Assembly (NCBI GenBank): GCA_977862235.1
Contig: OZ374557.1
Span: 682,001 to 746,000 of the forward strand
Origin: Dudresnaya verticillata
Lineage: Eukaryota
Length of the DNA: 64,000 nt
Direction: 5' to 3'
This document shows positions 3,971 to 63,106 of the stretch, one piece after another (the first letter of the stretch is position 1; each line of letters begins with the position of its first letter). Below the pieces are notes generated by a model. The model saw only the letters and a list, made by a program, of their open reading frames with translations, was not told the origin of the DNA and did no database searches. The position numbers and the translations under genes were made by a program.

Positions 3971-6058
3971 CCAAGGAAATGGTCTCCGAACCTTAGGATA
4001 TTTGATCCCCGGACGGTTTGGAAGTCGTTGGGGGTACTCGTTCGCCATAGCGAAATGGCTCCGCCACACTTCGCGTATGGGACGGCAGGCTCGAGTGCCA
4101 GTATCTTGGGACATGAGGTGGATGCGGCTGGCGTGCCAATAGCGATCTCCCACAGCCGCGATTGGCTCTTGTGTACCGACCTAACACATCTAAAGATGCG
4201 GGCGGGAGCTAGTCGCGAGGAGGTTCTCCGCATCGGGGGGAGGATGGCTCAAAGCCGTGTTTGTAATAGCCTCATGGGCACGTTCGTTGGCATCCTGACC
4301 GGTACCACCCGGTTCCTCCCGCGCCTTGACGGCGATGCAGGCACTCTGCAATGGGACCTTGCCTATGTGCGCTTCAGGTATGAGATTGCGTGGAGCAATA
4401 CCCTGAGACAGAAGTTAATTGCCCAAGCCGAACTACTGCATGAGATCCATCAGAGTGGACAGTGGGACCTTCGCATGGTAATGCATGAACGCCCACTCAT
4501 ACGTAAGGGTCGGGATAACTTCCCTTATACTATGGGCCGAGTAGTGCGGTTGGACGAGTCGTCCAATATTAAGTATGCGCTCGATACCCCACAGACGGCG
4601 ATGCCGTTAGAACACTCCCGCTTCGAGCGTAAGCAGCGTCATAAGACTGGGTGTCTCATCCCTTGCCATTGCCAAGAGGTGATGGCTATTAAGCCGAAGT
4701 GGTATAACGGGAAGTACCCCTAGATTCCAGACGATCATAAGGATCTCGAGGTCTCATACTCAATGCCCGTTGGAACTCCGACTATCGTCGCTTACCTCGG
4801 TCTAGAAATGATTGCTAAGGCCATGGATGACAGTGTACTTTGGAGTATCTTCCGCCATGAGTGGATTGTTCTCGTCGTACAGACCTTGGTCTATGAGGCT
4901 CGTCGAGGCCTTTTGCATTTCATAGGCCAACCATTGTGCGTGGCCATTCGGGCTCTGAGCCCGACAGCTCTTACGGCGGATGCAGAAGAAGCCAAGGACT
5001 TAGAAGTCCTGCTCGTATTCATAGAGCGCATCCGCTGGAGCGAAATGTCTAAGAGGAACCGACAACTTCCGGATAATACCGGGCATCTAACTCCGGTCTT
5101 CGACTGTGGAGACTGGGTGGATTTTGATCCTCAGAAGTGGCATCCACTCTTACCAGAGTACCTAATTCAGCCGGAGCCATCAGAGACTCAACCCCTGGTT
5201 ATTGATGAGGGAATTAGTATAAACGGCGTCACTTCTGGTTGAGTTAGTTCCCATTGGTGAGACTCGGGTCCTCAGGCCCCTGAGCAGGTTCCGGTTTACG
5301 ACGAGACAGTCGGTGGGCAGCCACAGGGACCTTATGACCCGCCTGCTATGGGCTATTCGAAAGCCGAACACGTTATTAGAGACGTCTTGAATAGGCGCGG
5401 GTTAGCCACCCGGCTTGCTTGCCATTGGGACATGCGTCATCTCAACATACATAGTCCGGCAGACTGGGTGGAGGAGGTCATAGTGGATTATGAGTCCAAT
5501 TGGTTGCAGATGCCGGGCCCGACCGACGAGATGGAGCGTCTGCGGGCCCACTTCGACGCTCTTCCTCCCCTGTCGGGCCGTTCGTGGGTCGGGGACGTGA
5601 AGCCGCGTCGCGGCATTGGCCACGCTGGCGCGCCTGGCATCAAACAAGAGTCGACTGCAGTCGAAGAAAAAGACCCTCGAGCTAACACGCGTGACGATCC
5701 CGCCGCGATTCCGCGTGAGGAGTCGTCCGCCACCGCCATGCAGACCACAGCTTCAGCCTTTATGTCGGTTACCACGCCTTCGGTGTCGTTCGTTTCAACT
5801 TGTACTGCGATAGCAGCGGTGGGGGCTCCGACCCTTCTGGCACCGACTACGGGGGTACCCGGTTGTGCCCCCATGGGCGAGTTCCTTGGGGCAGACTTTC
5901 CTCACCGTGGCTCTCAAGACACAGAGGAAGTGTTGACCGGGGTTACCGCAGTCGTACCTGTGCCACATATAAGGACGCTGAGGGCTCAAAGCTCGCTGTT
6001 GACGGGCAGGATGGCGCCTCTCAAGCGAATAAGGTCGCAACCTCCTCAGATGACGTAA
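3971..6058 (+). pseudogene. Antisense accessory ORF of element A (unknown family, copy 1)
   Basis: ORFs 4028-4723, 4763-5242 and 5348-6058 share one frame and are separated by stops. Motifs RFERKQRHKTGCLIP, VLWSIFRHEW and CGDWVDFDP align with the other copies. Confidence 0.7.
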
Positions 6059-7890: not shown

Positions 7891-10800
7891 TTATTCCAAG
7901 AAGGAAATCCCCTTCGCGCGTTGATACCGTTTGACTAGATTCTCTGGGAGGTGTTCTCGCGGTTCCCATGTGTCCTGTGATGCAGGGCACTGGTACCAGC
8001 GCACCTTGTACAGTTTCGACTCGGAGTCGTAGTCGACCAATTTGTCATAAACATGCTCCCGTGGCGGGGCTTTCTTGAAGCTCGAAAACGGACGACGCGG
8101 GGTCGTCCCATCTGCATTAGGGGAGATCAGCTCGCCATGTGCTTGAGGAGAGCTTAGGCCCTGCGTGACCATTGGCCCTGTATCGTTCAGACCAGAAGGT
8201 GTGATAACCTCATCGCGAGGGGGTACGGTGGCAGAAACCGGGCCAGCGCCATTATCGATATCCTCGATCACTTCCCGAGGAGGGGTGACCGTCTGCGCAC
8301 TTGCTTGTTCCGTGCCCGCTTCCAGCTGCTCCTCTCTTACAATATTCTGCGATGGTACGACGCCTGGACGATTGGTGGTTATTGACTCAAGAGTTGGTCC
8401 TGCTGGCTCCACATTTCCAGGAGTAGCCTCCACAATGGGTGGGGCTAGCCCTAGAGCTTCAAGCTCTTCTTCCGGTGATGGGGCCAGAGTGACACGGTCC
8501 AGAGAGACTGATTCTCTTTCACCATTACTTTCCAACACGACAGTGTGCGTTCCTCTCTCCAGGATCTTTAACGGGCCGAGAGCCTTTGGAAACAATTTTC
8601 CTTCTCGTGCCACCCCCTTGGCGTCTTTCATTTTCGTCTCTCTCTCGAGAAATACCCAGTTACCCGGGCGTAACTTCTGATTAGTCAGACGAAAACGATT
8701 GTTGAAGTTGACTTCACATCACTGTTGAGCCATGCGTAGACATTGCGACGCTGTGTCCATCAACTTCTCGAGTCGCGCGGTTAACCGCTTCTTGACATTA
8801 ACCGCTGGCACGTTCGCAACGTCTAACGACTCTTCTTTCTCCATTAGAAGGGAAGTAGGCGGGTTGGATAGAACCAAATCAACGGGCGCGAGACCCGTTG
8901 CACGATGAACGGTCGTGTTATATGCGTACGTCAGAGCAGACGTGAATTCATCCCAATCTTTTTGGTCTTCAGCAATGAAATGCCTCAGCCCTGCTAACAG
9001 GGTATGATTAAACCTTTCTGTTTGTCCGTTCGTCTGCGGATGATAAGTCGACGTAAACAAATTCCGAATCTTGAGAATGCTACAGACGGCTATGAAGAAC
9101 TTAGACGCAAACTGCGAACCATTGTCCGACAGGATATAGCGGGGAAGTCCGTAGGTGTCCATCCAATGTTCGCAGAACGCTTTCGCCACAGTATAAGCTG
9201 TTACCGTTTTCAATGGTATAGCTCGAGTAAGCTTTGAGAAGCGGCCCGTCATCACGAGCAGATACCCGTTGTCCTTACTCGACCGAGGTAGCGGCCCTAG
9301 GATATCAATCCCCACGAACTCTAACGGCATTGTAGCCGAAAACAACTTCATATGGGAAGCGTGTTGTCGTAGCTGAACACGTTCCTGTGCACATTTCACA
9401 CAGTTTAGAACTGTCGCATATACCGCGAGAGCCATGCCAGACCAGAATACTTGTCGGCGCAAATTATGATACATCCTTGTCCCACCGGGGTGACCGGCCA
9501 TCTCCGGGTAGTGCGCGAGATGTAGGGCCCCCGTTCTTGGAGTACTCTAGGTATCACTACCTGTCGTGTCTTATCTATATAAGACCGTCGGACTAGCAGT
9601 CCTCGTTCATCTTCCAGATAGCAGCCTGGCTTGCCGGAATCGATGGCGAGTTTGATACCCATACAGAATTGATCGGTTCGCTGAGAGCGAAGAATCTCCT
9701 CCACGGTGAGCAGAGAAAGACTCTTTTCGTCCACGTATTTCTCCACCACGTTGGCTATTAATTGTTCATCCTCGAGTAGCAACTCGATTGAATCATCCTC
9801 GGGTTCCACCTCCCAGCTCTCCAAGGGTCTGGATAGGGCGTCCGTTCGCGAATCGCTTTCAGACGAAAGGTCGCGAAGATCCGTCCGGTCGCTGTCAGCG
9901 ATTACAAAGCAAGGAATCTCCAAATCTGGTTCCCAGTTGGTAAAACCGTAAGTAGGTAATCGAGAGACGGCATCAGCTATCTGATTCTTCTTTCCCTTAC
10001 GGTATTGAACCGTGAAGTCGCATTCGAGGAGTCGCAAGCGCCAGCGCGCTAATCGTCTGGATGCATCCGTCATACTCATCATCCACTTGAGTGCCTGATG
10101 GTCGGTGTACAAGTCAAAATGCGACCTTTCTAAATATGGTCTGAGCATTTGGGTGGCCCAAACCACCGCGAGGCATTCCTTCTCGCCGACGGAGTAATTC
10201 CGTTCTGCCTGGGTCAGGCCTCGGCTCCAAAACCCGATAGGGTGACGTGTTGCATCTGGTTCCATTTGCATAAGGGCACACCCTATCTGATAGTCACAAG
10301 CACCGGTATCCACAGATAGAGGTCTATCTTCTGTCGAGAGTCGGAGAATCGGTGGCGCTATTAGTTCCTTTTTCAATAACTCGAACGCTTCGCGTTGTTG
10401 GCAATTAAACGGAGGTAGTTCGAATCCCACATCCTTACGAAGAAGTCTATTAAGCGGTGATGCGACTCGTGCGAAGTTCGGCACAAAGCGTCTATAGACG
10501 TTGCACAACCCAATGAACGTCGTAATTGTGTCTGGTTCTTGGGCTCTTTGAAACCTTCGATGGCTTGAGTATTCTTCGTAGCTACTTCCAGTAGTCCTGG
10601 GCGTATCACACGGCCTAGGTAATCCAGGCTTTTTGTGAAGAAGTTGCACTTCTTGAGCTTGAACGATACTCCCGCTTCTTTCAATACTGAGAGTATTTCT
10701 TGAACATTGCCTAAGTGTTCGTCGACACTCTTTAAGAAGATTATGATATCATCGAAGTAGACGAGACAGGACTTCCATCGGTAACCCGATAATGGGATAT

Positions 10801-12365
10801 CAACGGTTCTCTGAAAGGTCGCCGGCGCGTTGCACAATCCGAATGGCATTCGGCAGAACTGGAAACAACCTGCATGACAGGTAAACGCTGTTTTGGCCTT
10901 GTCTTCCGCTGCTACGGGTATTTGCCAGTAGGCCGAATTTCAATCGAGAGTTTTAAAGTACTGGGCGTCGCCCAATGAATCTAAACACTCATCCGTTCGA
11001 GGTAGAGGATATGAATCCTTGATTGTGATCGAATTCAGGTTCCTGTAATCGAAACAGAAACGGAGAGATCCGTCAGGCTTCTTAACCAGTTCTACTGGGC
11101 TTTCAAAGTCCGAGCGCGTAGGCTCTATGACTCCTTCCTTGAGTTTTTTATCAACTTCGTCTTGTTCCGCTTATCGCGCTTTCGGTCCTGACCGATATGG
11201 TTGCGCAAAGACGGGTTTGGACCCGTTCATGAGCTCGATACGATGCTCTGTAACCTTGATGGTCCCAAGTTTCCCGCTCCACATGTCAGCGAAAGGCCGT
11301 AACATTTTGCGGACGCGGCGTCTGTCAGACGGCGAAAGGTTTACTGCTACGTCGTCGACCATTGGGTTTTCGGTAGCTGTTTTAACGCCTGGTTTCGAAT
11401 CGGTCGCGCCGAGAGCAGCAGTTAGCCCTGCCGCCGTACATCAAAGGCTGTTTCTGCATGAGGACGCGAGTCTTTTGACGTCAGAACCGGGTTGTCAGGG
11501 ACATGGTCGATGGAAACCGAATAAACCGGCGTGGCCGTGGGAGCGGGAACAGCTCGATCAATTACTTGGTTCTTGTTTAGTCGCCGCACGCGAGAAGAAA
11601 CGTTGGCGATCTTTACGCGGAACAGAACGTTCTTTTGAAGCTTGACGATTCCGTTCATGACGACGACTTGTTTACGGTCGTACAGCCGTTGAAAAGAATC
11701 CAGGAAGTGAATTCCTTTAGCCGCACCGCACACGTGACGGCGACCCAGGTTTCCGAACCGGGTTTGAAGTTAGTTGTTAGGGCAACAATCACAAGTCGTG
11801 AGTTAGCTAGAGGAGGAACCTTCATAGGTTCGCCAAAGCTTTCAGCTCGTGGAATCCCGCATCGATGGCAATGAATAGGGTGCACCGAGCCGTCTCGCAG
11901 GACGACGTGTTGCTTGCTCACTCGTAACCCGTCGACGTGGGTATCGAAATAGGTGCAACCCAAAATCATATCCACGGCTAAAGCCTTGACTACGACGAAC
12001 GGTTGACGAACCGTATAGGTCCCAATCCTGACGGCCAGGGAGATCATCCCCAAGATAGTTAAACGATGGCTTGATGCTGAGGTTAAGTTAACGATCGAGC
12101 GGTTCGATGAAATCTTCTTTCTGTCTTCCAAAGATAGCACATCTGCTCTGATGAGGTTAGGGCCCGCGCCCGTATCCAGTACTGAGAGTAATTTCATTAA
12201 ACGTTCAACAGAGGTCCCAACGGATGCGACAACGGTGTAGTTGTATCGCGAGAGCGAGCAGATTGGGTCCTTAACATACTCATGATACTTAGACCCGGGG
12301 GGTACGCCCACGGGGTGTTCTAATATCTTCTTTGGAAGAAGAGGCTGAAGATTCGATGAAACCAA
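7891..12365 (-). pseudogene. Element A pol: protease, RT, RNase H, integrase, chromodomain (frameshifted)
   Basis: LDTGAGPN; MPFGLCNAPATFQR and YFDD; YSVGEKECLAVVW; GHPG, IDILGPLP and YHPQTNGQTERFN; YKVRWYQCPASQDTWEP. Confidence 0.95.
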
Positions 12366-22227: not shown

Positions 22228-23060
22228 TGTCGTGCAAACGTCGTACTGAAGACGGAGAACACCTCCGGGCCGTTCGGGAGCCCGGTGGGTAGCCGCTAAT
22301 AGCGAACTTGGTAGAGCAGGTTGAACACGCCTAGGGCGGACTGTAAACACCCAGGGCGAGCGGGCAAAGGGGCAAAGAAACCCAAAAGGAAACACGTTAG
22401 CAACGGTTAGGAACGTGGAAACACGGATAGGTAGACGCTTATGCTTCCGGGCAGCGGTAGGGTGCGCGCTTTCGCGGAAGGGAAGTCTAGACCCAACCGG
22501 CTTGCCAGGGCTTTACTGTTACGTCCTGGACGAGGTACCTAAGTAATACTACGGAGCCGCGGCGCGGCGGCTGCATGACGTAGTGCGCGGGAACCCGGGA
22601 CGCGTGTCGCGTGGAGGTGCGCCTGACACGTCCCAGGACAATGCAGCCGTTTTGCGCCGGAGCGTGCGTCTTACAGAGTTGCGCTGGTCCGGTGCTGTAG
22701 GCGATCCGGATTCGGATCGCGATTGGCACCGTATTACAGGTGTGTTTCCCTTACCGCGGATCCCGATGTTCGATCTGGATGTCGGATCCGGATTCGATCA
22801 GGATCCGGGCCAATCTGACAGTCAACTCCCTTACATCTCGTTAATCCCGATGCCTCATCCAGATCCGCTCTGCAGCGTCGCGCCGTACAGTGCGTCGGGC
22901 GTTCGCGGCGCTGGTTTGTGGCACCCGCGCGTCCGTAGCCAATCGTCGATGACGTGTTCGCGCCAACGGCGAATGAGCCGTTCCAGGTGACCGTCCGTCG
23001 GCCGACGAGGTTCTCGGCGCCCATGGCGAGGAAATAAAGCCCGGTCCCCCGTGCGCCACA
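22228..23060 (-). repeat. Element B 3' LTR (PPT at 23061-23073, minus strand AAGCGGGGGGTCG)
   Basis: Direct repeat of 34276-35102, about 2% diverged by manual count. Confidence 0.97.
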
Positions 23061-23403
23061 CGACCCCCCGCTTAGACGCGAACACATTCATCGACTCAGT
23101 CGTACCGCGCAACCTCCATCGGCTGCGACTCCGCTTGTGGCGTGTGTTTTTTCTCGGCGTTGCCATTTTTGCGACCAGTCTCGCCTGAAGCGGTCGTTTC
23201 GATTTCAGCGTGTTATCGACCGACGTCAATGCTTCACCCGGGGCGTGTGTGACAGTGCTCCCAAGCGGCCGTTTTGCTTTCGTCGTTGACGTTCGGCGAT
23301 CCTCGTCCAAGGCGCGCGTGTTATCCCCTCGTCGACGACGTTATTGCACTGGGTGTTGAGTCCCTTATCGTCAGTGACGTGCGCTTAAGTTTCTGTTGTT
23401 GAC

Positions 23404-25542
23404 GTGATGCCCCAGTACGATGGGGCGCAGATTGCGCCCCCTTCATCGATGCCGGTATACCCGTCGTTGCACGCCTTTGTCGGAAAGAGTCCGCGCGACC
23501 ATGCGCGCCTCTTTGGGAGGGCGCCGTGGTTCGACCCGGCCGCGTTGGGAAACGAAGCGCTGATTGCGCATTACGCCATCGGCGATATGTTGCCGGGGGA
23601 ACTCCCCTTCGCAGTCGTCTATTCGACGGAGTGGCGGACGCGTTGCGCGGTCCCGAAAGAGTGGGTGCATGCGCACCTGGGTCAGTCGCGGGCAGACGCG
23701 CACGCCCGCTTCGTCGTTGACGTGTATGGCCGCTTCGGCCGCTTCCCGGGGACCGACTTGGTCCGGTTGTCGCTGGGGTTGGATGCGGCGTTTTTCCGCA
23801 CACACGGCGAGGCCGGTTATGGCTATCGTCTGGCAGAACTGCCATTGACACATATCACTCCGTCGTTGGACACTCGCGTCAGAGACGATGTCTTGGTGAT
23901 GGGTGTGCGCTTGCGAGCGGAGTTTCGGTATTCCCACCGAGCGGGCACCTTCTACTGGGAGAGGTGCATTCGCTGGGAGTGCGAGTCCCGGCGCCGCAAG
24001 GGCGTGCTGGTGCCGTATCAGGATACGCAGATTGACCGCTTAGAGCGTACGAAAGTGTCGAACTGTTTCGTCAAGTTACCGCCACTGTGGCGTGAGATGG
24101 AAGTGTGCGAGAGCTTCGCTGCCGAGTTACCCCCGTGCGTCACTTACGTGGGCTCGGAGCTCGTAGTGAACGCGTATTCGCGGTGGTGGTTCGTCTTTCA
24201 GACGGAGTGGGTTGCCAACATCGCTTATGCGTGGTTGTGGGAGGTGTACGATACCTTTCGGATGTACTACCTCTCACCACGTATCGTAGCGTTTTTCAAC
24301 GATTTGGACCTCACCGAGACGCTCGGCGGTCAGCGGAACCTCCGCGAGTTCTGGGACTTACGCCAAGTGGCGAGCGAGATCGACTGGGATAACCCCGTGG
24401 TCGACCCTCTGGAAAACAGCCGCCGGAAGGCGCGTCGTCCGCGTTTCGCGATGAGCCGCAACCACCACGCCTGTGGCGACTGGACTTGGTACAATCCTTG
24501 GACCAAACGTCGAACGACGGAAAGCATCGCTGAACGTCATCGACGTACTGACCGGTTTGTACCGTCGGGCCATCCTCGTGGGCTACTGCCCTCGTGCGAC
24601 TTTGTCGGAGATTTCCCTCCCCACTTGGCCGTGTTAACAGCCGAGGAGGACGCCTTTCACGCTTCCAGCGCCGGGGTGCACACGTCTGGGACGGGCTTCG
24701 CGACGCCTATGGCGGTTGAGCCGTCAGCTTCTGCTGTAGAATCGCCTGTGGCGTCGGATGTAGCAACTGCGGCTGGGCAGTCCCATACGCCAGTGGCGGT
24801 TGCTCCCAACGAGGGGAACGCAGCCGTCGCTGACGATGATGGTGACGCTGTCATGTCTGCCCCGGTGCAAACACCCGCGGTCGTGGCAGTGGCGTCGCCA
24901 TCAGTCCCAAGCGTCCAAGACGGTGTTGCAGTATCTCCGGCTGTGCCGACTTGGAACTCCGCACAGCGCGATGTGGTCCTTTCGCTCCTGTGGGCCGCAG
25001 GCGTCGAGCCTAGCGACCCGAGCGGCTCGCCCTCGGATTGGTGGGCTCGCGTCTTAGCGACGGTTCCAACTTCGGTGGCGGCGCCTGTGCGGGGGTCAGA
25101 TGCTCTGCCGGTTACGGCGCCTAATGGCGGGAGCGCGGTGGGCTCTTCGTCTACGATGATGCCTTCCAGTGGCGAAACGCCTACGGCGAGCAAGGTTGTC
25201 CCAACGTCATCGACGGGGAAAATCCCCGATGCGCCTAAGGCGATCATTTCGGAACCTGCTCCGAAGGCGGTTAGCATCCCGAGGACGCCTCGGGCGAAGG
25301 ACAAGGATGGCCTGTTGATGCCTAAGGAGATTTCATTGTGCTCGACGCCTGTGGCGGAAGAGGCTTCGCGGTCGCCGAAGCCGGCGGCCGCGACAGTCGT
25401 TCCCACGCCCAAGGCGGCTAACAAATCCGATGCTTCGCCCAAGGCGCAAGTGGATACCACAGCCAAAGGCGACGACGGTGGCCAGCGCCTCGCGGCCCGC
25501 GGCCACGCCGCCTTGTCCAGCTCCTACGTCGCCGACGGATGA
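23404..25542 (+). CDS. Antisense accessory ORF of element B (unknown family, copy 2; open for 712 codons, ATG at 23407)
   Basis: W/Y/F/R-rich N-terminal ~400 aa that aligns closely with 56064-57500, followed by an S/T/P/A-rich tail. It may extend to 25633 via a late indel. Confidence 0.85.
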   Translation: MMPQYDGAQIAPPSSMPVYPSLHAFVGKSPRDHARLFGRAPWFDPAALGNEALIAHYAIGDMLPGELPFAVVYSTEWRTRCAVPKEWVHAHLGQSRADAHARFVVDVYGRFGRFPGTDLVRLSLGLDAAFFRTHGEAGYGYRLAELPLTHITPSLDTRVRDDVLVMGVRLRAEFRYSHRAGTFYWERCIRWECESRRRKGVLVPYQDTQIDRLERTKVSNCFVKLPPLWREMEVCESFAAELPPCVTYVGSELVVNAYSRWWFVFQTEWVANIAYAWLWEVYDTFRMYYLSPRIVAFFNDLDLTETLGGQRNLREFWDLRQVASEIDWDNPVVDPLENSRRKARRPRFAMSRNHHACGDWTWYNPWTKRRTTESIAERHRRTDRFVPSGHPRGLLPSCDFVGDFPPHLAVLTAEEDAFHASSAGVHTSGTGFATPMAVEPSASAVESPVASDVATAAGQSHTPVAVAPNEGNAAVADDDGDAVMSAPVQTPAVVAVASPSVPSVQDGVAVSPAVPTWNSAQRDVVLSLLWAAGVEPSDPSGSPSDWWARVLATVPTSVAAPVRGSDALPVTAPNGGSAVGSSSTMMPSSGETPTASKVVPTSSTGKIPDAPKAIISEPAPKAVSIPRTPRAKDKDGLLMPKEISLCSTPVAEEASRSPKPAAATVVPTPKAANKSDASPKAQVDTTAKGDDGGQRLAARGHAALSSSYVADG

Positions 25543-26901
25543 TGATGGCTATGAGGCGGCTCTTCGCGAGTCCGCCGAAGGCGATGAGGCGGAAAGCCCT
25601 GGTACGCCGAAGGCGGCTGAAGGTAGCGGTTGATTTCTCGTCTGCGACGGTTTGGCGGGCGCGAGAGTGCGTTTCATGAGCTTGGTCGCTCCTTGCGGGG
25701 CGACCCAAGCGGGGAAAGTAAGCGTCTAGCGACGATGACGGCGACGTTAACGTAGCCACATAGTTAGCCTAAGTAATCGAAGCGATGTTATCGAACGCAT
25801 ATGCGTATTAAACATCTTCGTTACTTTCGCGTGTTACCTTGCTGATCCCTCGTCGTTGTGAGCCCTGTGCCGTAACCCGCGTCCGCCGTCGGGCGCCCAT
25901 TTGAGCGTTTGAGACGTTGAGGGCATGTCGCGCGTGCATCGTATTCCTTGCATCGTTCATCCTTGACGTACTCCGGCCGAGGGGGTGGTCCACGTATGTT
26001 ATCGTCGTAAACCGCCATCGTCGTTGTTGTTTGGAGTTCCTGCGACTCGTCTTTGACGTTAGGGGCAACGCGCATAATCGGCCTCTCTAATTGCCCTTGG
26101 CGTCTTGTCGTGAAACTTGGGCACGGGGCCGGCTCGTCGTTGATGGGAAGAGTTAACCGCTCGTCTTGGACGTGGTGAGTGGAGGTGGCGTGCGTTGTGA
26201 AAACGCCGTCACGCGTCGCCTTGCGTGGCGCCGGCGGTTAGTCGCCGACGGCGTTTTCCCCAGCCATCTTCGTCTTGACTCGTCCTCGACGCTGTTACGA
26301 CGAGTTTGCTACGGCCCCGGCGCGGAGTCGTCGCTCGTTCTTCCTAGGGTGCGGCCGTCTCCCTCCTCGCTGCGGGTGCGACGCGTCGTGTACGGACGGC
26401 GTAACCGCCATTATTCTCGTCTGCGACGCTCTCGCGCCAGAGTCTCGCGTCCTTACGTTACCCTTTTCTGCGTAATCATTACGTCTCTTTCTTCTTCCTT
26501 GGCGCCTGCGGCGTGCGGTATATCGTACCCCTTGTAAACGGCGGCGCATTTCTGCGAAGTCGGAGTGTGGTGGCGGCCGACGTGGGTCACGTAGCTTGCC
26601 GTTCGGGACGGCTAGCTTCGCGTCCTCGCGAGTAGTGGTAGCGGGACTTCCCTTCGACCGTTCGGAGCGACACTTGGCCATTCGCGAGGCGTCCGTGGCG
26701 AATAATTATTTTTGTTATTTTTGTTTTTTCTTCCATGCGCTGTCACCCGGAGCCAACGTCTGGCACTTTTGTGGTGCCAGCGCTTCGGCTCATCTCGGCT
26801 GACAGTCCCGTTGTGGGGTGTGCGTATGAGGATCCGTCCTGAGCGTGCTTCCGCCTTTGGCGTTCCAGGACGCCAGTCCGTTCGTGATCGGTCGGGGCGT
26901 A

Positions 26902-34273: not shown

Positions 34274-34275
34274 GT

Positions 34276-35690: not shown

Positions 35691-36365
35691 TGTGGTGAAA
35701 CGGCCGTTTCGGAGTGCGGACGACAGTTGAGCCGACTCGCGCCCGGCGCACTGGTGAGCTGGCGCCAAAAGCCGAAGCGGAGTACAGTGACACAGTAGCA
35801 CTGTATGCCCTGCTGGAGTCTGCACGCACCACCAATAGGAGCCAAGTAGTTGATTTATTTGTAATTAGGTAATTATAATCATGCTGTACAGTACGTAGTG
35901 TCAGCCGGCCAATGAGAATGCCGAGCACGTCCGCAACGGTGACCGGGACCAGTAGGGCCGGACCCACCTGGTGGACCAGACCCATTGGGGTCTGGCCCAC
36001 ACGGACCGGACCGCGGGGCGTATCTCCCAGTATATTAATGGGTGGCCACCGCGAGTCCTACAGTAAACGGGTACGCAACCCTGGGCAAAGTGACTTACCC
36101 TAAGCCTTACCCTCATCCTCCTTTACGGTTTCCCCTCGCCAGCCCCGTGAACGTATTCCTCTTACCTCCGTCCCGGTGTAGTTGTCCTGGCACTGTACCG
36201 TCTCCCTTGTCTGTTGCGTCCCTTTACTCCTTACAGGTGTTGCCGCTCGAGGTACTCCCTTCGGTCTACGAACTAAGCTCTACCACCCCGATGCCGTGTG
36301 AGATCACTCCTTATTGGGATTGCCTGATCAGCTCTCCTTATAGGTGTGCCTTTCACCTCACCACA
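35691..36365 (+). repeat. Element C 5' LTR
   Basis: Direct repeat of 44948-45622 with about 13 substitutions by manual count. Confidence 0.97.
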
Positions 36366-36529
36366 TCTTTTTGGTCTCCCGACCTAGAAGACCGTCAAGG
36401 TAGAAGAATCTCCGTTGGACTCCGCTTCGGTAGGAGATCAGCTTTGTGACAACTCCGTATTGGTGTAAAGGCAGGACAAGGCAAAACACTCGTTGAATCC
36501 ATTTTGGTAACCTAAGAATAGAAGAACAC

Positions 36530-42100: not shown

Positions 42101-43506
42101 GCCGCTCATGTGTCAAAACCAAGGGCTCGCGGCTTAAGCATCAGAAGTTCATGAAGCTATTTCCCGCGAGTGGCCCACTGGAGTTTGTCGCTACGGATAT
42201 ACTGGGCCCGCTGCCGAAAACCAAACGGGGATACGTCTTTGTACTGGTCATCACCGATCGGTTTTCTAAACTAACACGGTGCATCCCGTTACGGACGATT
42301 ACAGCCGTCGTGGTGGCGAATGCATTTTTAGACCATTGGGTGCATGCGTATGGAGCACCTATATTTGTACTCACCGACAATGGAAGACAGTTCATGGCGA
42401 AGTTCTTCGACGCTATCTGTGCCCTACTCGGAGTGCGGCATTTGTTGACCGCTGCCTATCACCCGCAAACCAACGGGCAAGCCGAGCGGTTTAACAAAAC
42501 CATAGCGCAGCGCCTCCGACACTACGTCGAGGATCACCACACCGATTCGGATTTATACCTACAGCCGTTGACCTACTCCTATAATATGTAGGTACACCGG
42601 ATTACGGATACTACTCCCTTTGACCTGGTGTTAACTCGACACCCATCGGATATTATTGTGCGTGGCACCCCTGTGGAGTTGGAAGAAACCGTTACGGAGG
42701 GGCGTATGACTCCCGTACTCCAAAAGCGGGGAACCAGGCGGCGTTTGCGCTATGCCCTACAGAAGGCGCAGACCAAGCAAACTACAGCCCAGTTGAAGTC
42801 GAAGGCCCTCTTCGACCGTAAGGTGCGTTTCCGACCGGTGGTTCGCGGTGGCGATCAAGTCTACGTAGATCGCCCGCCGCGTAATCTACGACCCACCGAA
42901 CGGAAGGAACGCGACCGATTGGGTCAAGGCCCTGACCACGTCGGTGAATTTGCGGAGCAAATGAAGAAGCTCCTCCCAAGATCGACAGGCCCCTACGAGG
43001 TTCATACCGCAACGGACACTGTAGTCACTATTAAGAAGGATGGCGTCCTGATTCCCATCAGCATCGATCGCATCACTAAGGTACCGATTGGAGTTCCTGT
43101 GCAACTGGCGCCGCTATTGGCTCCGTCAGTTACACCATACACCGACGTGGACGGTACAGTACCCCGGCAGACGGGGGGCACTACAGTAGTACCCCAAACA
43201 CCAGGTGGTATTACTGTAACGCCCCAAACGCCAGGCGGTATTCCTACCCCCGTTCCGGAGACAATTGACGCCGACACGGAGTATGTTATCGAGCAGATCG
43301 TGGAACACCGCGAAGATCCCACGGGTATGACCTACAAGGTGCGTTGGTACGGCTACCCACCAGACCAGGATACGTATGAACCCGCCGAGGAATTGCCACA
43401 GAACTTTATTCACCGCTATTGGAGTCGCAAACGCCCTCCCGCAGCATCTCCGCGGCGTCGGCGGGAACTGACGCGAGTCACACACACCGAACCGGAATTG
43501 GGATAG
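39118..43506 (+). pseudogene. Element C pol (PR-RT-RH-IN-chromodomain) with frameshifts and two in-frame stops
   Basis: LDSGAGPN; YLDD; TTTEKECLAVVW; YHPQTNGQAERFN; YKVRWYGYPPDQDTYEP. Confidence 0.97.
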
Positions 43507-44947
43507 CGGACCGCTCCTATTGTACGTCCCTAATACGGCGTACGAAACGTGCCCTGAGTGGTTTCCCCAGCGGAATGACCCTGGAGACCATTTCCGGTGG
43601 GACGCCAAGGTCGTGTGCACCGTTTCGGTAATGTGGGGTCTATCGTGTCACAAACACTGGTATTGGAGTGGGAAGTGTGTCGGGGCAACTGCTACGCGAC
43701 ATCGGCATATCACCACGCGCTTTGCCCGCCATTTCCGCCTCGATGGTGTTGCATGCCGCAAAATTCGGCATGACCCCTGGACTCACGGTCACCGAGCCCT
43801 TGCCAAAGGGGCTTCACTCCATATTGGTATGCTCTTCCTTGGTGCCAAACTGGTACCAGCCCGGTTCCCCCGCTGCTTATGCAATTTGGGGCATTGCGCT
43901 GCAAACACAGACATGGGAGTGGAAGCTTGCGGTCGCGTGCGCACGCTGGCTCCAAAACAGGTGTACTGTCACGTTCCGGCTTGCTGCATCGGGCGCGCCG
44001 CCACTTTCTTGGAGTATAGAGCCCTGGCAACTAGCTCCGAACAGTTACCACGGCCGCATACACCGTTCTGGTATCGAGGGAGACGATACCCGGAAGTTTC
44101 CGCCTCTCGGCGACTGTGCGCGTACCCTTCTGGAGTCCGATTCCGGTCTACCGCCGTCGCTTCAAGCACAGTTTTTTCGGATTTCCACACCACTGGAGCT
44201 CAGGTTAATATATTAATGTTGACATTAATCTAATGTCTTTTCTTAACATTAATATATTAACTAATATATTAATGTTAATATATTGAAATTAATATATTCC
44301 GCCGGGACGGTGCTGCCCGTGCAAGAAGGGCCGCGTCCAAGAGTCGGAAAGGAACAAGCTTTAGGCTTCGCACACGATGTCGTTGGGATGTTGTGACACC
44401 GTTTCGCGCCACATGTGAGCAATTACCGAAAAATCGGGCATAGCTTTCCCCATGTTGTCAACAGCCACTGCATGGCACACCGTATTGGAGTATGTTTCGG
44501 TACTGGCTCCGCCAAAGGACCCCGGGCGTCTCTGGAATATGTTTCGCTCAAACGTCGTTATGGTTTCTGTGCTGCGTCCACACCGCGACACTGGCTGGAA
44601 GTGAAATGGAGCGGGAGACCAAGTTCAAATTTCGGCATGGTTTCCTCATACCGTTAACGGCCACTACAGCGCACATCGCAAGGGATTATTTGCGAATCCG
44701 ATTGGAGTCCTTCGGTCATTGATCGCGAACCACCTGGTGGACCCGCACTCTATTTTGGTGTGATAGACTTTGGCTTTGGGTATACGCGCGAGGCAGATTT
44801 TTCCGAAACGGGGATGGCACGGTGACCACACCCGATCACAGCAGCCTGTTACGGAGCCGTTACGGTGTGAATGGAACGAAACCAATACGGTCTGGACGAA
44901 AACCGAAGCGGGCGCACGAGGACGTGTCGCCATTTAAGGAGGGGGTC

Positions 44948-45622
44948 TGTGGTGAAGCGGCCGTTTCGGAGTGCGGACGACGGTTGAGCCGACTCGCACC
45001 TGGCGCACTGGTGAGCTGGCGACAAAAGCCGAAGCGGAATACAGTGACACAGTAGCACTGTATGCCCCGCTGGAGTCTGCGCGCACCACCAATAGGAGCC
45101 AAGTAGTTGATTTATTTGTAATTAGGTAATTATAATCATGCTGTACAGTATGTAGTGTCAGCCGGCCAATGAGAATGCCGAGCACGTCCGCAACGGTGAC
45201 CGGGACCAGTAGGGCCGGACCCACCTGGTGGACTAGACCCATTGGAGTCTGGCCCACACGGACCGGACCGCGGGGCGTATCTCCCAGTATATTAATGGGT
45301 GGCCACCGCGAGTCCTACAGTAAACGGGTACGCAACCCTGGGCAAAGTGACTTACCCTAAGCCTTACCCTCATCCTCCTTTACGGTTTCCCCTCGCCAGC
45401 CCCGTGCACGTATTCCTCTTACCTCCGTCCCGGTGTAGTTGTCCTGGCACTGTACCGTCTCCCTTGTCTGTTGCGTCCCTTTACTCCTTACAGGTGTTGC
45501 CGCTCGAGGTACTCCCTTCGGTCTACGAACTAAGCTCTACCACCCCGATGCCGTGTGAGATCACTCCTTATTGGGATTGCCTGATCAGCTCTCCTTATAG
45601 GTGTGCCTTTCACTTCACCACA
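44948..45622 (+). repeat. Element C 3' LTR
   Basis: Direct repeat of 35691-36365. Confidence 0.97.
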
Positions 45623-56063: not shown

Positions 56064-57965
56064 ATGAGCCAACCGCCGTCACCGTCGCAGCGCGCCACCG
56101 TCGAAGAGGAGTACTTCTCCGAAATCAAACCCAACGTGGCAAGGGTGGCGATACCCGCTGAAGGTCGGAGCCAGTCGTCCGCCACGTTGCCAGTCGCGGA
56201 GCTACCCGCTGTGCCGAGGCGCCGGTTGGCGACATTGTCGGCGGTGCCGTCACCGATGAATCAGACAAAGAGTTCAGAGTTGCACCTACCCACGCCTATG
56301 CCAGCGGCTGTATCGACACCGCCATCGGGGTCATCCTCGTCCCCGCCGGTTATCGAATATCCAATACCGGCGGAGTTCGTCGGCATGATGCCGAATGACG
56401 ACCTCGACCTGTTCACCAGGGCCCCGTGGTTTCATCCACGCGATTATCGTAGGGCGGACATCATCGACCGGTATGTCCTCAACGGGTATCTCCCCGGGCA
56501 AATCCCCGCTGCTGTCTTGGATACGAAGTATTGGCACCTTCACGGGACGATACCCGTCCATCATCTCAATGACAGGAACCAGCCGCTCGATGCGGTCTTC
56601 CGCGAATGGGTGCGGCTGTTGTACCGCTGTCGCACGCGGACTGTCGTCCGTGCCCTCCTCCCGCCAGATCACAGCGTTGACTACGCGGTTTTCCGCACAA
56701 ATGGCGAAGTCGACTACGTTTGGTATCTCGCGGACCTGTACTTGCCGCAGTCTTGGCGTGGACGAGAACCGCGAGTTGAACAATCAGCGATTCTGCTGGG
56801 CATTCAGCTTCGGAACGAATTCCGTTATCTGCGTAAACGCGAGAACTCCTTCTGGGAGAAGATCCACTTCGAACGTCGCGAACGCTCGCGGTTGGGAGTT
56901 TTCGTCCCGTATCCACATGTCGAAGCGGCTCTCCTTCGGATGACTTACCGTAGACGCCACTACGTGAGTATTCCCTGCACTTGGGCCCTGGTACAGTCGT
57001 GTGAGGGATTCCTAGTGTAGTTACCCAACGTGTTTGGTTACTGTATGAGCGAGTTTCTTCGCGATCCCAAGACTGGGCTATGGACGGTGGCTTTCACCGA
57101 GTTCGTCGCAAAAACAGCCATGCACTGGCTCTGGGAAACATAAGACACCTTGCGCCTTTCGTTTCTACCCCCGACAATGACGTCGCTCATTGCGCAGCTG
57201 GATCTGCGGACGGTCCTTGGTGGTCAAGCTAATGACGACGAACTTCGCAGGCTGCTGCGGTTTCATGACGCCATTAATTGGAAAGACCCCCCGGTTGTCC
57301 CGCTTGCGAATCACAAACGCAGTCGCCTGCGGATGAATTTCTCGCCTGGTCTTCATCACCCCCATTGCGGGGACTTCGTATGGTACGACCCTTGGCGGCG
57401 TCAGTTGGTTGGCGAGGAAGAGGCACGGTATCACCGCTACAATCCAACCCTGATGCCTGCGGGCTACCCTTTCGGGTGCGTCTACGACGCCCTTGAACAG
57501 GGTGTCGCGGAAGAAGAAAGCGGAGACCTGATTGATGAGAAGGTGGGCGCCCACGGCATGGACGAAGTCGCAGAGCCGCCTGCTTCTTACGAATATTTGG
57601 ATGGGCCGCGTTCCCAGGCGCAGCGGGAGCTACGTGGTAATGCGTCGCCTTCCACCCCAGGAAGAGGGACTCGAGTCCGGGTGCTTCCGAATACGGAGGT
57701 GACTCCGAGTTTGCCAAACACTCCCAGCGTTGCGCCGTCGTCGGCTCTTCACACGCCTCAAAATCGACCGTCTGTCGCCCGCGCACCTGCCACGATTCAC
57801 ATTGTCATGTCCGATTTCTTACGGCGTGCGGGGGTGGACCTCGGGTTAAATCTATCCGAGTGCGAGCTCCGCGAGTGACTCCAGGTACTAGCGGCTGCTC
57901 CACTTGCCGGCGACAACGCTGCATCTCCAGTGGGGCAAATGCTGACGAACAGCGAGACACAATGA
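56064..57965 (+). pseudogene. Antisense accessory ORF of element D (unknown family, copy 3)
   Basis: 56064-57020 and 57150-57878 share one frame with in-frame stops, and are colinear with the B ORF over ~400 aa. Confidence 0.85.
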
Positions 57966-59959
57966 TCGTTGAAGCGGGGGATCCCCCGGATGCGGCGCCA
58001 GTGGAGACTACTCTCAGTGGGGCGACTGCTCCCGCAGGAGGCGACACGGCGGCCGATAATGAGGACGGGCCGAGGGTGATATCACCGCTGACCCTATGTT
58101 CGCTTGGATGAAGCGCAGGGATTAGCCGCGTCCACCAGCACCCACTGTGCGGACATGTAGTAGTAATCGAAGCGGTCGATCCGCGTGAAAATGTTCGTTG
58201 CTTGGTCAACGTGAAATAAAACCAACTTGCTTAGATGACGATCTCGCTGCATTAGTTAGTTAGCATTGCCGGTGCCACTCGAGGTGCCGCTTAAGCGTAC
58301 AAGCGGCGTACAGTTGCCAGTAGGTGTGCAGCGTGAGGTCTGTTAAAGCGGAAGCGAAGTCGTGGCCCGTAGTGTAGCGTGCGTTAAGGCCCATCATCAA
58401 AGGCGCTCTGTGTCGGGGCACTTAACAATAGACGAAGCGGTTCATCCACGTTTTGGATACTCGTTGACTAGCAACGTTGCTGGGTTAACCGCCGTGTTCG
58501 CTATTAGCCTCAACGTGCCCTTGTCATTCCAGAAGATGTCGCGATGGCGGTCGGCATGGTGAACCACGGGAGATTGGCCATTGGGTTTCAATGTGACCTA
58601 TGGCTATCTCATTCTACTGCATCCAGTGCGACGTTTTGCCAAGGCGACTCACTTGGAGCGTCCCACGAGCCTTCGCCAGGTCTGGGGGCGATAGTCGAAG
58701 CAGTTGGTCTGCGTAAATACGTTCGTTGGTTCTCAACGTAAATGACAAAGCCCGCTCCCATTGCCTGGGGGATTTCCTTCCAACCGTCGTTACCGCAAAA
58801 ACGGGCCCGTTGTTTTCCCTGTGAAGTCAACAGTAGTAAGCGAATCAGTCTTCCCACGTTTGAATATCCGTGGTCCGCCAATGTGTTAAAGTTACCGCTA
58901 TAGCATGCGTCGCCCAGGTATGGCAGTGGCTCTTAGTAAAGCGGGCTGCCCGAGTGGATGTTTTCATAGAAACAGAACCGACGCGTTCAAGTCGATCGTG
59001 GCGATTAGTCTGTGTAAGCGTAGTCAGGAAGCGGGTTATCCGCGTATTAAGGTTCATCTTTTCCCCACGTTTCTTCGCTCCCTCGCTCCCATGCTGCCGT
59101 GACCAGCTTTGATATGGACACATGTGCTGTGTACGTCGAGCTCGGTTAGGGGCAGTAGGCTTATGTGGGATATGTTTAATCCACGCGTAAGGATGCGCGT
59201 TGACAGCGATATGAGTAGAGTATCGGTTTGAATCCGCGTTTCCATTCCCATGCCATAGCCACGCCGATGCCAACCTCTGGCCAGTGATTTCAGCGTGTAG
59301 TGGTTAATCGAATTTTCCACGGTCGTTACCCGTTGAATTACAACATCACCTCCTCTTCCTTACCATTTTGTTGGCGCCACTTTCGACTAGGAGGCGGCCT
59401 AGCCGACCATAGCGCGATGTAGATTGCTGGGTGTTCCCAATTTAGCCTTTCGACAATATCGGGTATTCTAGTGAACTTTTACGCAATTAGAAAAGACTCG
59501 TCGCGGTATAGATGGGAAATTCTATCTATACTGTACTGAAACATTGTATGTACTTACTGAATACCGAACCGGTAGAGATCCTCTTAGCCAGTCGTCTGGC
59601 ACGATCTCCGAGGGTTTCCGGTAAGCGACTAGCGCCCGGACCTCTGAGTCTTCGGCAAACCCCTGTTTCTTCGAGTTCGGTGTCTTCGTGTTCGTGACCG
59701 CGGATACAGGCCAGCCTCCCTTTTGATAGCCCCGCGCACCCGGAGTCATCCCCGGTGGTCGATCGCTCGAGTTCTCTGTTCCGCGCACGAATACGTTAAC
59801 ACCGTGGTCCTTCGTGTTGGTCGCTCCGCTCTACCACGCTACTACCCCATTTCCTTTCTCCGTTTTCCCTTAGGCTACGAGGCCATACGTTAGGCTCCGA
59901 GGCCATCCCTTACTGTGCGAGACTTCCCCGCGTCTCCGTGGACATTCGTTATACCACAA

Positions 59960-60280
59960 TAAGGGTCTGGACCCGTGGTGGAATCGGCCCTGCTGGTCAC
60001 AATCTCCGACACGGACATGCGCAGCATTATCATTGGCTGGCCACTACTCTACGCACTGTACAGATACTCACTTAAATTAAAGAATAAATAATACAAATAC
60101 TCCGCTACGGTTGGTGCGCTTCACTGACAATACAGCAATGCGTACCAGAGCACAGTAATGCATACAACACCAACACGGTTACACGTTGCCAAATCATCAG
60201 CATGGCGCGCTGCCACATCTTCCATTACGGTTGGCTCGCCGTTGCCGCACCGCAGGCGCGCCACGGCTCACTTCACCACA
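59960..60280 (-). repeat. U3 end of the 3' LTR of truncated element E (diverged relative of family C); left boundary not found
   Basis: cttcaccaca|gaccccctccttaaatggcg matches the reverse complement of the C PPT/LTR junction, and the internal sequence resembles the C LTR. Confidence 0.75.
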
Positions 60281-60414
60281 GACCCCCTCCTTAAATGGCG
60301 CCACGTCCCCGTGCGCCCACCATCACGGATTGCCTTCTCTTCCACACCCACACACTCAACTGATACGGCTACCGCTCTCAACTTTCCCTATTCCTCCTTG
60401 CGCGTTCTTCCAGC

Positions 60415-63106
60415 GTGGCAAGGGAGAAGAGCAAACGCTCCCAATCTCCCTTTCAACCGACACGGCGTGACCGCGCGACTGCGACGACAAAGGCGCCGGG
60501 CATGCCTGTCTTTACGGATGCTTCGACTCAAGCGCAGACTTCTTCCTCTGCGGCTGCGGCTCGACCCACAACACGTCAGCGTGTGGACGTCGCTGTGACG
60601 GAACCTTCGCAGGTACCATCAGTGGGCCGTGCCTGGTCGGTCTACGATCCGAATCGGTTTGCTTCTCGTGCTGTTACAAGCACCGCGCTGCCAAGGAATT
60701 CAACGGCCCCCCGGTAACGGAGAAGCGTTAACTAAGGACGGTGATGATGAGGTCCGACGCGGTGGCGAGGAGCTCAGCTTGGCAGACCTGCCATCCATTC
60801 CGTTACGGACGCCCTCGACTCCGATCTCAACGCCGGCGTGGAGTATGGGGGCTAGCCTGCATCTGTCTGTCAGAACTCCGAAACGGTCGCGCGTGCCAGC
60901 GCGAAGCGCCACGCCTGCCCCAGGCCCTTGGATGCCGATGTCTCTAACCAGTAGCGTTGAGGGCCGTGCCCCAACTAGATACTGGCCAGGGCACCATTTC
61001 GATCGCCGTGCAGGGCGCCCGGCGAGATCAGATTCGGAACGGGCGAAGATGACACCGCAGATTACAGTGTCTTACATCATCGAGGGTTACCCAACCGTTT
61101 TGGAAGTCTGACGATATCAAACCGTTTTGGAGTAGCCATTCAAGGAAAACCAGCGTATTGGCTTTGTTCCGAATCTGCGGGCGTTTGTGTGGCAAAGCCG
61201 GTGGGGGCATAGCTACTTTCAAGAGCGCACCACGACAGTTTCGGATTTGTTGTGGTACCGGTGCCATGGAGAAGTTGAGTATACCGCGAAGGTGAGTCGC
61301 TTGTTGGCCAAAGCTTTCCGTCTACGGGATGCGCCGATCGTGGTGCAGTTCATCCGGTTCGACCCGCCGTAAGACCAATCGGTGTAATGGTTCGGCTATG
61401 CCGATGGGTGGAAGGACGACGCTGCAACAGAACATCGACCGCGGACGCGCTCCCATGAAGGGATGCAGGTGGGCTTACCCATCCTACACACGTGGAACAC
61501 CAAGGAGTTCTTCCATCTTCCGTATCGGATGCGACGTACGCTCTACCTCACAGCTCCGTCATGATGGGATAGCTATGAGGTAACCCGTTGGCTATCCGTC
61601 CCCACACCTTCCGTTCAGGCTTACTTCTCGGCGAGCCTGCTCAACGAACGGGAGTGGAATCGCGAGCATCCGAATGGAGAACGTCCCCCGAATCAAGCTC
61701 AGCTCGACGTACTGTGGCGTATCTTCCGACCGAAATGGGCAATACTGGTGCTATTCTCATGGCTCCAGGTTGCCTATTACGGAGTACGGCACAATACCAA
61801 GTTATCGGAGTGGCGATGCTTCCCGCATGATGAAGATGATCTACTCGGCGCAAACTGTGTAAGCATATTTCAGCTAGCCGTCACGGTGATCGACCTCATT
61901 CGCCAAGTTGGCATAGCTGAGTTGGTGACGGGGTCGGCGTACCCCCTAGATAGGGTGGAGCGCCTTTTATCCGTACACGGAGAGCAGGATTGGAAGCACA
62001 CCCCGGGCTTCTTGGGGTATAATTGGGATGAGGACCGTATCCTATCGGTACCCCCACTTAGGCCCGGGGTGCGCGAGCCGTATTTCCTTCATCGGGAAGA
62101 CCCTCGTCCGGAATGGTTGGTAGGAGAGGTGCAAGCCTATCGGGGTTATGCGCCTCGTAAAGCACCAGGGGATGCATACCGTGACGGTTTGGAGGCGGCC
62201 GAAGATTGGGGGCGTTGTCAAGAGACGGTGGGGTGTTCGCGTGCAATCGACCCGCGCGACTCCGTCACGCTGAGGCAGCAAGAAGCTGTCCCCTTCTTGG
62301 ACGAACAGGAGGAGATCATGCCCGTCGCAACGATGGCAGCGGAGATCGAGAAGGTGGTCACTCCAGTCCGTCCGGGCGGCGCCGTGCCCATGCCACGCGA
62401 TGTTGGTCGCAAGACTACTATTCCTGTAACGGACAAGGCTCTGACGCCCATGGAAGTAGTTCCTTCTATTGTTTCGCTGCCCAAGGCCACGTCGCCATCT
62501 AAGCAGCTGGCTCCGAAAGAGCAGATCGTTTCGGAAGCGGCACCAAGTGCTGGGCCGGCGGCATTGTCTCCTGCGACGCAAATTCAGTCCAACGTGGAGC
62601 CGCCCCCCGCAAGTTCTTCATTGCCGGCACTCGCACCAGTGGTGTGTGAGGCACCGGTCACCGTAGCGGAGGTGGCTCCCAAGCGCCCAAGTGCCGACCT
62701 CGTTGGCGACAAACCTTCGGCGCCTTCAGCGATTCTCGAACCGTTACAGAAGAGCGCTGTCGCTTCGGCAGAGAAGGATACGGAGCTACCTCCTTGGAGG
62801 GAAGTAGCCTCACCCGAGTTGGAATTATCCGTGCTGGTGATTTCCTTAACGGAGCGTTCCGTCGAGGCCGGAGTTGTCGGTAGGCCGTCGTTATCCCCAA
62901 AGGTGGAGGTGCAAGAAGATGAGGATCCAGCCGTCACGGTTCCGGTTCACTTAGCCGCTACGGAGAGCGGGTTGCAGGTGCTTAGGGGCATTTGCCGTAC
63001 GCAGCGATTTCCGGTGCCGGATTCCGTTCAGGATGCATTAACCTTAACGGAGTGGCTGGTGGAGCAAGTAATTCGCCTCCGCACAGTGGTTCGGCGCCAG
63101 CGCTAG
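60415..63106 (+). pseudogene. Antisense accessory ORF of element E (unknown family, copy 4)
   Basis: 60629-61111, 61187-61372 and 61748-63106 share a frame. Motifs DLLWYRCHGEVEY and VLWRIFRPKWAILVL; P/A/S/E-rich tail. Confidence 0.72.

What the first reader, a model, noticed from the sequence alone, without database searches (positions are those of the whole stretch)
3971..63106. Unrecognised family of antisense accessory proteins shared by four diverged Gypsy elements
Seen: four ORFs (A 3971-6058, B 23404-25542, D 56064-57965, E 60415-63106) lie on the strand opposite the element's sense strand. In A and B they are downstream of integrase; in B, D and E they start just inside a PPT/3' LTR boundary. 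They share colinear motifs: DAAFFRTHGEAGY (B) / DYAVFRTNGEVDY (D) / DLLWYRCHGEVEY (E); RWECESRRRKGVLVPY (B) / HFERRERSRLGVFVPY (D) / RFERKQRHKTGCLIPC (A); WWFVFQTEW (B) / LWTVAFTEF (D) / LWSIFRHEW (A) / LWRIFRPKW (E); CGDWTWYNP (B) / CGDFVWYDP (D) / CGDWVDFDP (A). Each ends in a disordered S/T/P/A tail. Known: antisense 3' extra ORFs occur in plant Tat/Retand non-chromovirus elements. I do not recognise this domain, it has no obvious signal peptide (not env-like), and the two carriers with visible pol are chromoviruses. Inference: protein conservation across elements with dissimilar LTRs implies long-term selection for a third retrotransposon gene, for example an anti-silencing, targeting or regulatory factor.
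Basis: partly seen in the sequence, partly recalled or inferred. Interest (0 to 1): 0.9.

Follow-up and report, generated by a model that had tools for sequence, protein, structure and literature searches.

The report
Backwards third gene in seaweed retrotransposons
Gypsy retrotransposons in what is likely a red seaweed carry an extra, backwards-facing gene from a large unnamed protein family with a predicted well-folded core, which likely helps the element resist silencing by its host.

Summary
ORFs A, B, D and E are homologous (profile scores 146, 400, 371, 35 bits; shuffles at most 5.4). B-D codon-position identity of 51/56/30% shows protein-level selection. B is intact (711 aa) inside a complete chromodomain-bearing Ty3/Gypsy element, antisense between pol and the 3' LTR. 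D and E sit behind the same type of PPT/LTR boundary but have no pol; A's link to its pol is positional only. The family is large: 1,676 representatives at 50% clustering, no Pfam match, and the only organism-named members are Gracilariales, including five near-identical dispersed copies in Gracilariopsis chorda. It has a ~380-aa core that AlphaFold2 folds confidently (pLDDT 93.9), a disordered tail, and a previously unnoticed three-helix tail module (44 of 87 tails). Element C, a full relative, lacks the gene, so it is accessory. The position is a known kind (Retand/Grande/Boty antisense ORFs); the protein family appears undescribed. Best mechanism, inferred only: a nuclear nucleic-acid-binding anti-silencing factor (about 40%). 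Expression and linkage outside this window are untested.

The parts
22228..35102 (-). Element B: complete chromodomain-bearing Ty3/Gypsy element carrying the antisense gene; gag-pol interrupted by several stops/frameshifts
   Evidence: LTRs 22228-23060 and 34276-35102, 18 differences in 826 aligned sites, identical 5-bp TSD ACGTT; RT, integrase, chromodomain by Pfam
23061..23075 (-). PPT of element B
34255..34273 (-). PBS of element B, identical over 19 nt to that of element C; tRNA not identified
23407..25542 (+). ORF B, intact, 711 aa, antisense to gag-pol, ATG 347 nt inside the 3' LTR boundary
23455..24615 (+). Conserved core domain of B (~380 aa, mainly helix and ordered loop)
   Evidence: profile 392 bits; AlphaFold2 pLDDT 93.9, pTM 0.91
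24961..25062 (+). Three-helix tail module of B
   Evidence: 27 bits; model of a relative's module pLDDT 87
26905..31742 (-). pol of element B (protease, RT, RNase H, integrase, chromodomain)
4055..6058 (+). ORF A, decayed (3 in-frame stops), member of a distinct subfamily; tail module at 5360-5455
   Evidence: 146 bits; 12-row clade with SH-aLRT 100 in a quick tree
7891..12365 (-). pol with chromodomain next to ORF A, 5'-truncated, no LTR pair found; same-element link to ORF A is positional only
56064..57878 (+). ORF D, decayed (2 in-frame stops), 35% identical to B; partial tail module at 57804-57848
   Evidence: 371 bits
54995..55712 (-). 3' LTR remnant (ends 55697) and PPT (55698-55712) of element D; TATA-like heptamer at 55661 on the antisense strand
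60900..63106 (+). ORF E, most diverged and decayed (start uncertain; 5 stops in this span counting from 61109, 6 from 60596)
   Evidence: 35 bits, 20 and 24 bits with independent profiles
59560..60296 (-). 3' LTR (ends 60280; left end approximate) and PPT of element E, related to those of element C
   Evidence: about 70-74% local identity to the C LTR, 93% over PPT region
35691..45622 (+). Element C: complete chromodomain-bearing Ty3/Gypsy relative with no trace of the gene (internal control)
   Evidence: LTRs 98%, TSD AAGCT; no profile hit in six frames

Best explanation
These ORFs are copies of one selected accessory gene that lies antisense between pol and the 3' LTR of chromodomain-bearing Ty3/Gypsy elements in a likely red-algal genome, and its protein likely works in the nucleus as a nucleic-acid-binding factor that shields its own element family from host silencing. 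Shown: homology, protein-level selection, position and orientation (complete for B), dispersed multicopy relatives in Gracilariales, dispensability (element C). Predicted: a globular ~380-aa core with an Arg-rich helix, a disordered linker and a small three-helix module. Inferred: its own antisense transcript from a promoter at the U3 end of the 3' LTR or the ~350-nt leader; binding of element DNA or nascent RNA by the core; oligomerisation or partner recruitment by the tail module; relief of silencing for elements whose chromodomain would steer them into heterochromatin; action in trans, allowing loss in C.
For: Gene status: homology; 51/56/30% identity by codon position over 375 codons; 86 of 136 identical residues use different codons; 1,676 representatives; pLDDT 93.9. 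Transposon-like copy pattern: 5 G. chorda proteins 87-95% identical in the core on contigs of five different lengths; one 90% cluster has 33 members, many truncated. Not env-like: 6 of 102 proteins reach hydropathy 1.8 over 19 residues, 3 of 68 have a hydrophobic N-terminus. Nucleic-acid hint: the most basic window of the core is a predicted helix, B 187-202, with R/K in 66-92% of rows at five positions. CpG hint: CpG observed/expected is 1.25-1.49 across element B and 1.10-1.19 in D and E LTRs, against 0.84-1.13 in gene-less C; transitions between C's LTRs are CpG-biased (6 of 90 vs 5 of 288 sites, p 0.025) and those between B's are not (4 of 202 vs 6 of 306). Analogy from papers: Grande GENE23 is nuclear and has its own antisense promoter (PMC7264820); red-algal DNA transposons carry chromatin-modifying accessory genes and VANC is a self-binding anti-silencer (bioRxiv 2025.02.11.637652).
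Against: No direct evidence of function or expression. The core is net neutral (median charge +1) and many conserved Arg are matched by conserved Asp/Glu, so they may be structural salt bridges. Nuclear signals are weak: K(K/R)x(K/R) in 10 of 75 tails vs 5.2 in shuffles (max 10); SUMO-interaction motifs in 4 of 75. The CpG contrast is post hoc, rests on two LTR pairs, B vs C p 0.074, and ORF A's region is not CpG-rich (0.88-0.95). C transposed recently (LTRs 98%) without the gene. DNA context was seen for none of the database relatives. B's open frame is not evidence of selection after insertion (0.84 stops expected by chance).
Confidence: 0.4

Rival explanations
1. It is an accessory protein acting after transcription: binding the element's RNA to suppress RNA silencing, export it or aid packaging (Rev-like or viral-suppressor-like).
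For: Arg- and aromatic-rich core (R 10.7%, W 3.8%, Y 4.4%), RG[GR] motifs in 29 of 75 tails vs 15.9 in shuffles (max 27); such a role is proposed for Tekay 5' ORFs (PMC11728184).
Against: No GW/WG enrichment (129 vs 138 in shuffles); no RNA-binding Pfam domain in 50 proteins.
Confidence: 0.22
2. It is a cofactor of integration or nuclear import that binds Gag or integrase and steers or escorts the pre-integration complex.
For: Long-term linkage to elements with a targeting chromodomain; folded core plus disordered linker plus small helical module suits an adaptor.
Against: Element C integrates with a perfect TSD without it; it is on the opposite strand, so not co-translated with Gag-Pol.
Confidence: 0.13
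3. It is a mobile accessory gene shared among red-algal transposon classes (for example the domain-less Plavaka gene PAG1) or an enzyme of unknown chemistry that rides these elements.
For: PAG genes move between TE families in Florideophyceae and PAG1 has no known domain; near-invariant D126, R131, E135, E191, E232, E240, Y247 could form an active site; A belongs to a deep subfamily whose carrier type is not proven.
Against: In this window 3 of 4 copies abut a Gypsy-type PPT/LTR boundary at similar spacing; no conserved Cys/His or recognisable catalytic motif.
Confidence: 0.17
4. It limits its own element (copy-number control), through the protein or through antisense RNA that triggers silencing, and the protein is secondary.
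For: Antisense orientation would make double-stranded RNA with the genomic transcript (discussed in PMC7264820).
Against: Strong protein-level conservation is not needed for an RNA effect; carriers have amplified to multiple near-identical copies.
Confidence: 0.08

Closest known systems
Antisense 3' additional ORFs (aORF-3R) of Retand/Tat elements: Grande gene23, RIRE2, Retand TRP28 (PF04195)
   Same: Antisense ORF between pol and 3' LTR, conserved across families, function unknown (PMC11963269 parts 1 and 3 of 5 read; PMC7264820 parts 1-2 of 3 read).
   Different: No TRP28 match; carriers here have a chromodomain; named relatives are red algae, whereas TRP28 is reported only in flowering plants.
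Boty antisense ORF (brtn) of Botrytis cinerea / Sclerotinia
   Same: Antisense 3' ORF in a non-plant Gypsy element (PMC7264820; passage in bioRxiv 2021.04.13.439636). That Boty bears a chromodomain is recalled, not checked.
VANC anti-silencing proteins of VANDAL transposons and the related MAIN/PMD domain (PF10536; Ogre extra ORFs)
   Same: Transposon accessory protein with globular domain, disordered region and helical oligomerisation part; the model for the proposed mechanism (passages of PMC13547354; PMC6317226).
   Different: No Pfam match to PMD at E 0.01-0.1; carried by a retrotransposon; no functional data here.
Plavaka accessory genes PAG1-3 of red-algal DNA transposons
   Same: Red-algal TE accessory genes; PAG1 has no recognised domain (passages of bioRxiv 2025.02.11.637652).
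   Different: PAG2/PAG3 have methylase/SET and ParB/2OG domains, not seen here; PAG1 could not be compared (its sequence is in supplements not seen).
Tekay chromovirus 5' additional ORFs
   Same: Extra conserved ORF in chromodomain-bearing Gypsy elements, predicted nuclear (passages of PMC11728184).
   Different: Those lie 5' of gag and are mostly disordered; this one is 3', antisense and has a large predicted folded core.

Membership tests
Antisense 3' additional ORF (aORF-3R) of an LTR retrotransposon | Between pol and 3' LTR, opposite strand, within an LTR pair | tested here: met
   Complete for B; PPT/LTR boundary only for D and E; positional only for A
Antisense 3' additional ORF (aORF-3R) of an LTR retrotransposon | Protein conserved across diverged element families | tested here: met
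Antisense 3' additional ORF (aORF-3R) of an LTR retrotransposon | Present in most copies of a family | not testable with these tools
   No genome held; one copy per family in the window
Antisense 3' additional ORF (aORF-3R) of an LTR retrotransposon | Own antisense transcript | not testable with these tools
   No reads could be laid; only TATA-like and AATAAA-like words seen
Retand TRP28 / Ogre PMD / Athila ORF1 proteins | Pfam PF04195, PF10536 or PF03078 domain | tested here: not met
   0 families for the 4 window proteins (E only from 61565) at E 0.1 and for 46 of 46 relatives at E 0.01
env-like ORF | Sense orientation with signal peptide and transmembrane segment | tested here: not met
   Antisense; hydropathy scan
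VANC / MAIN-PMD anti-silencing fold | Structural homology to VANC21 | tested here: inconclusive
   whether 9LNK was among the chains compared is not known
VANC-like anti-silencing factor (by function) | Sequence-specific binding and demethylation of own element | not testable with these tools
   Only the indirect CpG contrast
SAP/HeH/LEM or UBA-like module (tail; resemblance recalled) | Profile or fold match of the three-helix tail module | tested here: inconclusive
Plavaka PAG1 | Sequence homology to PAG1 | not testable with these tools
Chromovirus clade (carriers) | Chromodomain at integrase C-terminus | tested here: met
   PF00385 in A, B, C pol
Chromovirus clade (carriers) | RT phylogeny within chromoviruses | not tested
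   No reference RTs at hand; chromodomain Gypsy lineages outside chromoviruses exist (PMC12477816 passage)

The most novel reading that the evidence does not exclude
Red-algal Gypsy elements encode a dedicated anti-silencing protein of a new fold, the retrotransposon counterpart of VANC, diversified into hundreds of lineages in an arms race with seaweed chromatin defences and shared in trans with gene-less relatives.
Probability: 0.25. Interest if true: 0.85.

Novelty: new variant of a known kind. Interest (0 to 1): 0.66.

Why it matters
The role of antisense ORFs in LTR retrotransposons has been an open question since Grande and RIRE2. This family offers a conserved, confidently modelled domain with near-invariant residues, an intact natural copy, and a natural gene-less control element, so the question can be tested. 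It also means that some 'hypothetical' genes in Gracilariales annotations are likely transposon genes, and it may point to how red seaweeds silence transposons, which is little studied.

Full report
Setting. The window is a nest of LTR retrotransposons around a few host genes, including an intronless ribosomal protein L3. No whole genome is held. The host is inferred to be a florideophyte red alga because the only organism-named relatives of the proteins are Gracilariales; it was not identified.

The four ORFs are homologous. Broken frames were read with X at stops. B-D align at 35% over 378 aa (E 1e-64), A-B at E 5e-9, A-D at 4e-6, D-E at 2e-4; B-E alone is not above shuffles. A profile from 121 database relatives scores B 400, D 371, A 146, E 35 bits, with shuffles of A and E at most 5.4. 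Because those relatives were found with a query that included A and E, I repeated the test with a profile made of B, D and four relatives found with B alone: A 70 bits, E 20 bits, shuffles at most 2.6 and 8.6, best unrelated chunk 5.9 of 420. E is thus a real but distant and decayed member. B-D nucleotide identity by codon position is 51/56/30% over 375 codons: third positions are saturated while the protein is kept, the signature of purifying selection. The ORFs overlap no pol frame, so this is not a shadow.

Anatomy of the elements. B is a full element on the minus strand (22228-35102): LTRs differing at 18 of 826 sites, TSD ACGTT, PBS, gag, protease, RT, RNase H, integrase, chromodomain, PPT. 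The 711-codon ORF runs antisense, starting 347 nt inside the 3' LTR boundary and ending 1.36 kb from the chromodomain frame. D has the same kind of boundary at 55697 with its ATG 367 nt inside, and E at 60280; B, C, D and E all have a G-run PPT followed by TGTGG. D and E have lost gag-pol. The leaders of B and D share a 39-nt pyrimidine/GT-rich stretch above all 100 shuffles, 1 of 6 leader comparisons. A lies 1.8 kb from a chromodomain pol in the same relative orientation, but no LTR pair was found and a PPT-like word at 6831 lies between them, so A's link to that pol is unproven. Element C (35691-45622) is complete, recent (LTRs 98%, TSD AAGCT), shares B's PBS and E's PPT and LTR family, and has no trace of the gene: the gene is accessory, lost or supplied in trans.

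The family. A profile search of 1.84 billion representatives found 1,676 at E 0.001 or better, 737 at 1e-10, 172 at 1e-30; only the best 150 were seen, and many are fragments, so the count overstates the number of families. Of 25 clusters looked up, 3 carry an organism name, all Gracilariales: two Agarophyton chilense proteins and five Gracilariopsis chorda hypothetical proteins on contigs of five different lengths, 87-95% identical in the core. Another cluster has 33 members, many truncated. This is the copy pattern of a transposon gene, although no flanking DNA of a relative could be fetched. No Pfam family matched the window proteins or 46 of 46 relatives scanned. In a quick tree of 85 cores, A falls in a separate 12-row clade (SH-aLRT 100), B and D group at 93, E is a long unplaced branch; the window thus holds deeply diverged lineages side by side.

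The protein. AlphaFold2 on a 122-row alignment gives pLDDT 93.9 and pTM 0.91 for B residues 13-410: 185 helix, 25 strand and 188 ordered loop residues. Near-invariant residues include D126, R131, E135, E191, R195, E232, Y247, W261; there is no conserved Cys or His. The most basic segment is a helix at B 187-202, but the core is net neutral. There is no transmembrane or signal-peptide pattern. It recalls SAP/HeH or UBA-like modules, from memory; the tests were inconclusive. Fold comparisons are given under Tried and rejected.

Mechanism. Shown: a selected, dispensable, antisense gene of these elements. Inferred: a separate antisense transcript (TATA-like words near the U3 end in B and D, AATAAA-like words downstream of B, D, E; weak), a nuclear protein that binds element nucleic acid through the core and recruits or oligomerises through the tail module, relieving silencing. 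The reasons to prefer this are analogy (nuclear Grande GENE23, VANC, red-algal PAG2/PAG3), the chromodomain that would place these elements in silenced chromatin (aromatic-cage residues, positions recalled, look intact in B and C and partly lost in A), fast divergence, and a weak compositional hint: carriers B, D, E keep more CpG than gene-less C, whose LTR transitions are CpG-biased (p 0.025) while B's are not; B vs C p 0.074, and A does not fit. Against: weak nuclear-signal enrichment, neutral charge, no expression data. I put this at about 40%, with RNA-level action, integration cofactor, shared or enzymatic TE gene, and self-restriction as rivals.

Comparison with what is known. [quoted passage not shown] REXdb covers Viridiplantae only and names PMD, TRP28 and Athila ORF1 as the main extra-ORF domains (PMC6317226, passages). 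Tekay chromoviruses carry 5' ORFs (PMC11728184, passages). The Bostrychia preprint describes accessory genes of red-algal DNA transposons and has no occurrence of 'antisense' (passages; supplements not seen, and they hold the PAG1 data). Passages of PMC12477816, PMC13547354, PMC6431247, PMC3350952, PMC9861306 and bioRxiv 2021.04.13.439636 were also read. Nine literature searches listed no description of this family; subscription papers and Repbase entries for Chondrus elements were not searchable and could mention the ORF.

Verdict. It works like an antisense 3' accessory gene and meets that class's positional test, but it is not a member of the characterised protein families by sequence. New variant of a known kind, with an apparently undescribed, large protein family; interest 0.66.

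Noticed in passing
window 54315-54989 (-): Likely solo LTR of the C family (94% to C LTRs, TSD 4 of 5) inserted at or in the 3' LTR remnant of element D.
   Followed up: yes
window 43507-44930: 3' region of gene-less element C: two overlapping sense-strand ORFs (253 and 194 codons) without a significant Pfam match and an AT-rich palindrome at about 44204-44300.
   Followed up: partly
window 13633-13801 and 17608-17779: Inverted repeat pair (70%, 175 nt) flanking the intronless RPL3 gene at 16136-17314; two small elements or old terminal repeats.
   Followed up: no
window 21293-21451 and 52731-52900: Two copies (78%) of a short dispersed repeat in opposite orientation.
   Followed up: no
window 19678-20790 (-): 370-codon ORF without Pfam match, with a CxxC motif resembling AhpD-like proteins (resemblance recalled).
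   Followed up: no
window 50204-52147 (-): 647-codon ORF with an 18-nt tandem repeat coding N/D/R/G/Y-rich units; no Pfam match, possibly a Copia-type gag.
   Followed up: no
window 45932-49700 (+): Decayed MULE transposase (PF10551).
   Followed up: no
window 2220-3200 (+) and 63330-64000 (-): Copia-like RT/RNase H fragments by eye (no Pfam hit); they cut off elements A' and E.
   Followed up: partly
window 467-2065 (-): Second, truncated relative of element A (76% to 11684-12854) with a gag remnant.
   Followed up: no
window 12945-12958 (-): PPT-like word of the C/E type with no LTR behind it, where element A's gag breaks off.
   Followed up: no
window 5719-6346 (+): A second frame overlapping the end of ORF A reads like the family's acidic tails, suggesting a frameshift in A's tail.
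   Followed up: no
L001: Bacterial sugar-catabolism operon fetched as a false positive of the motif scan.
   Followed up: yes
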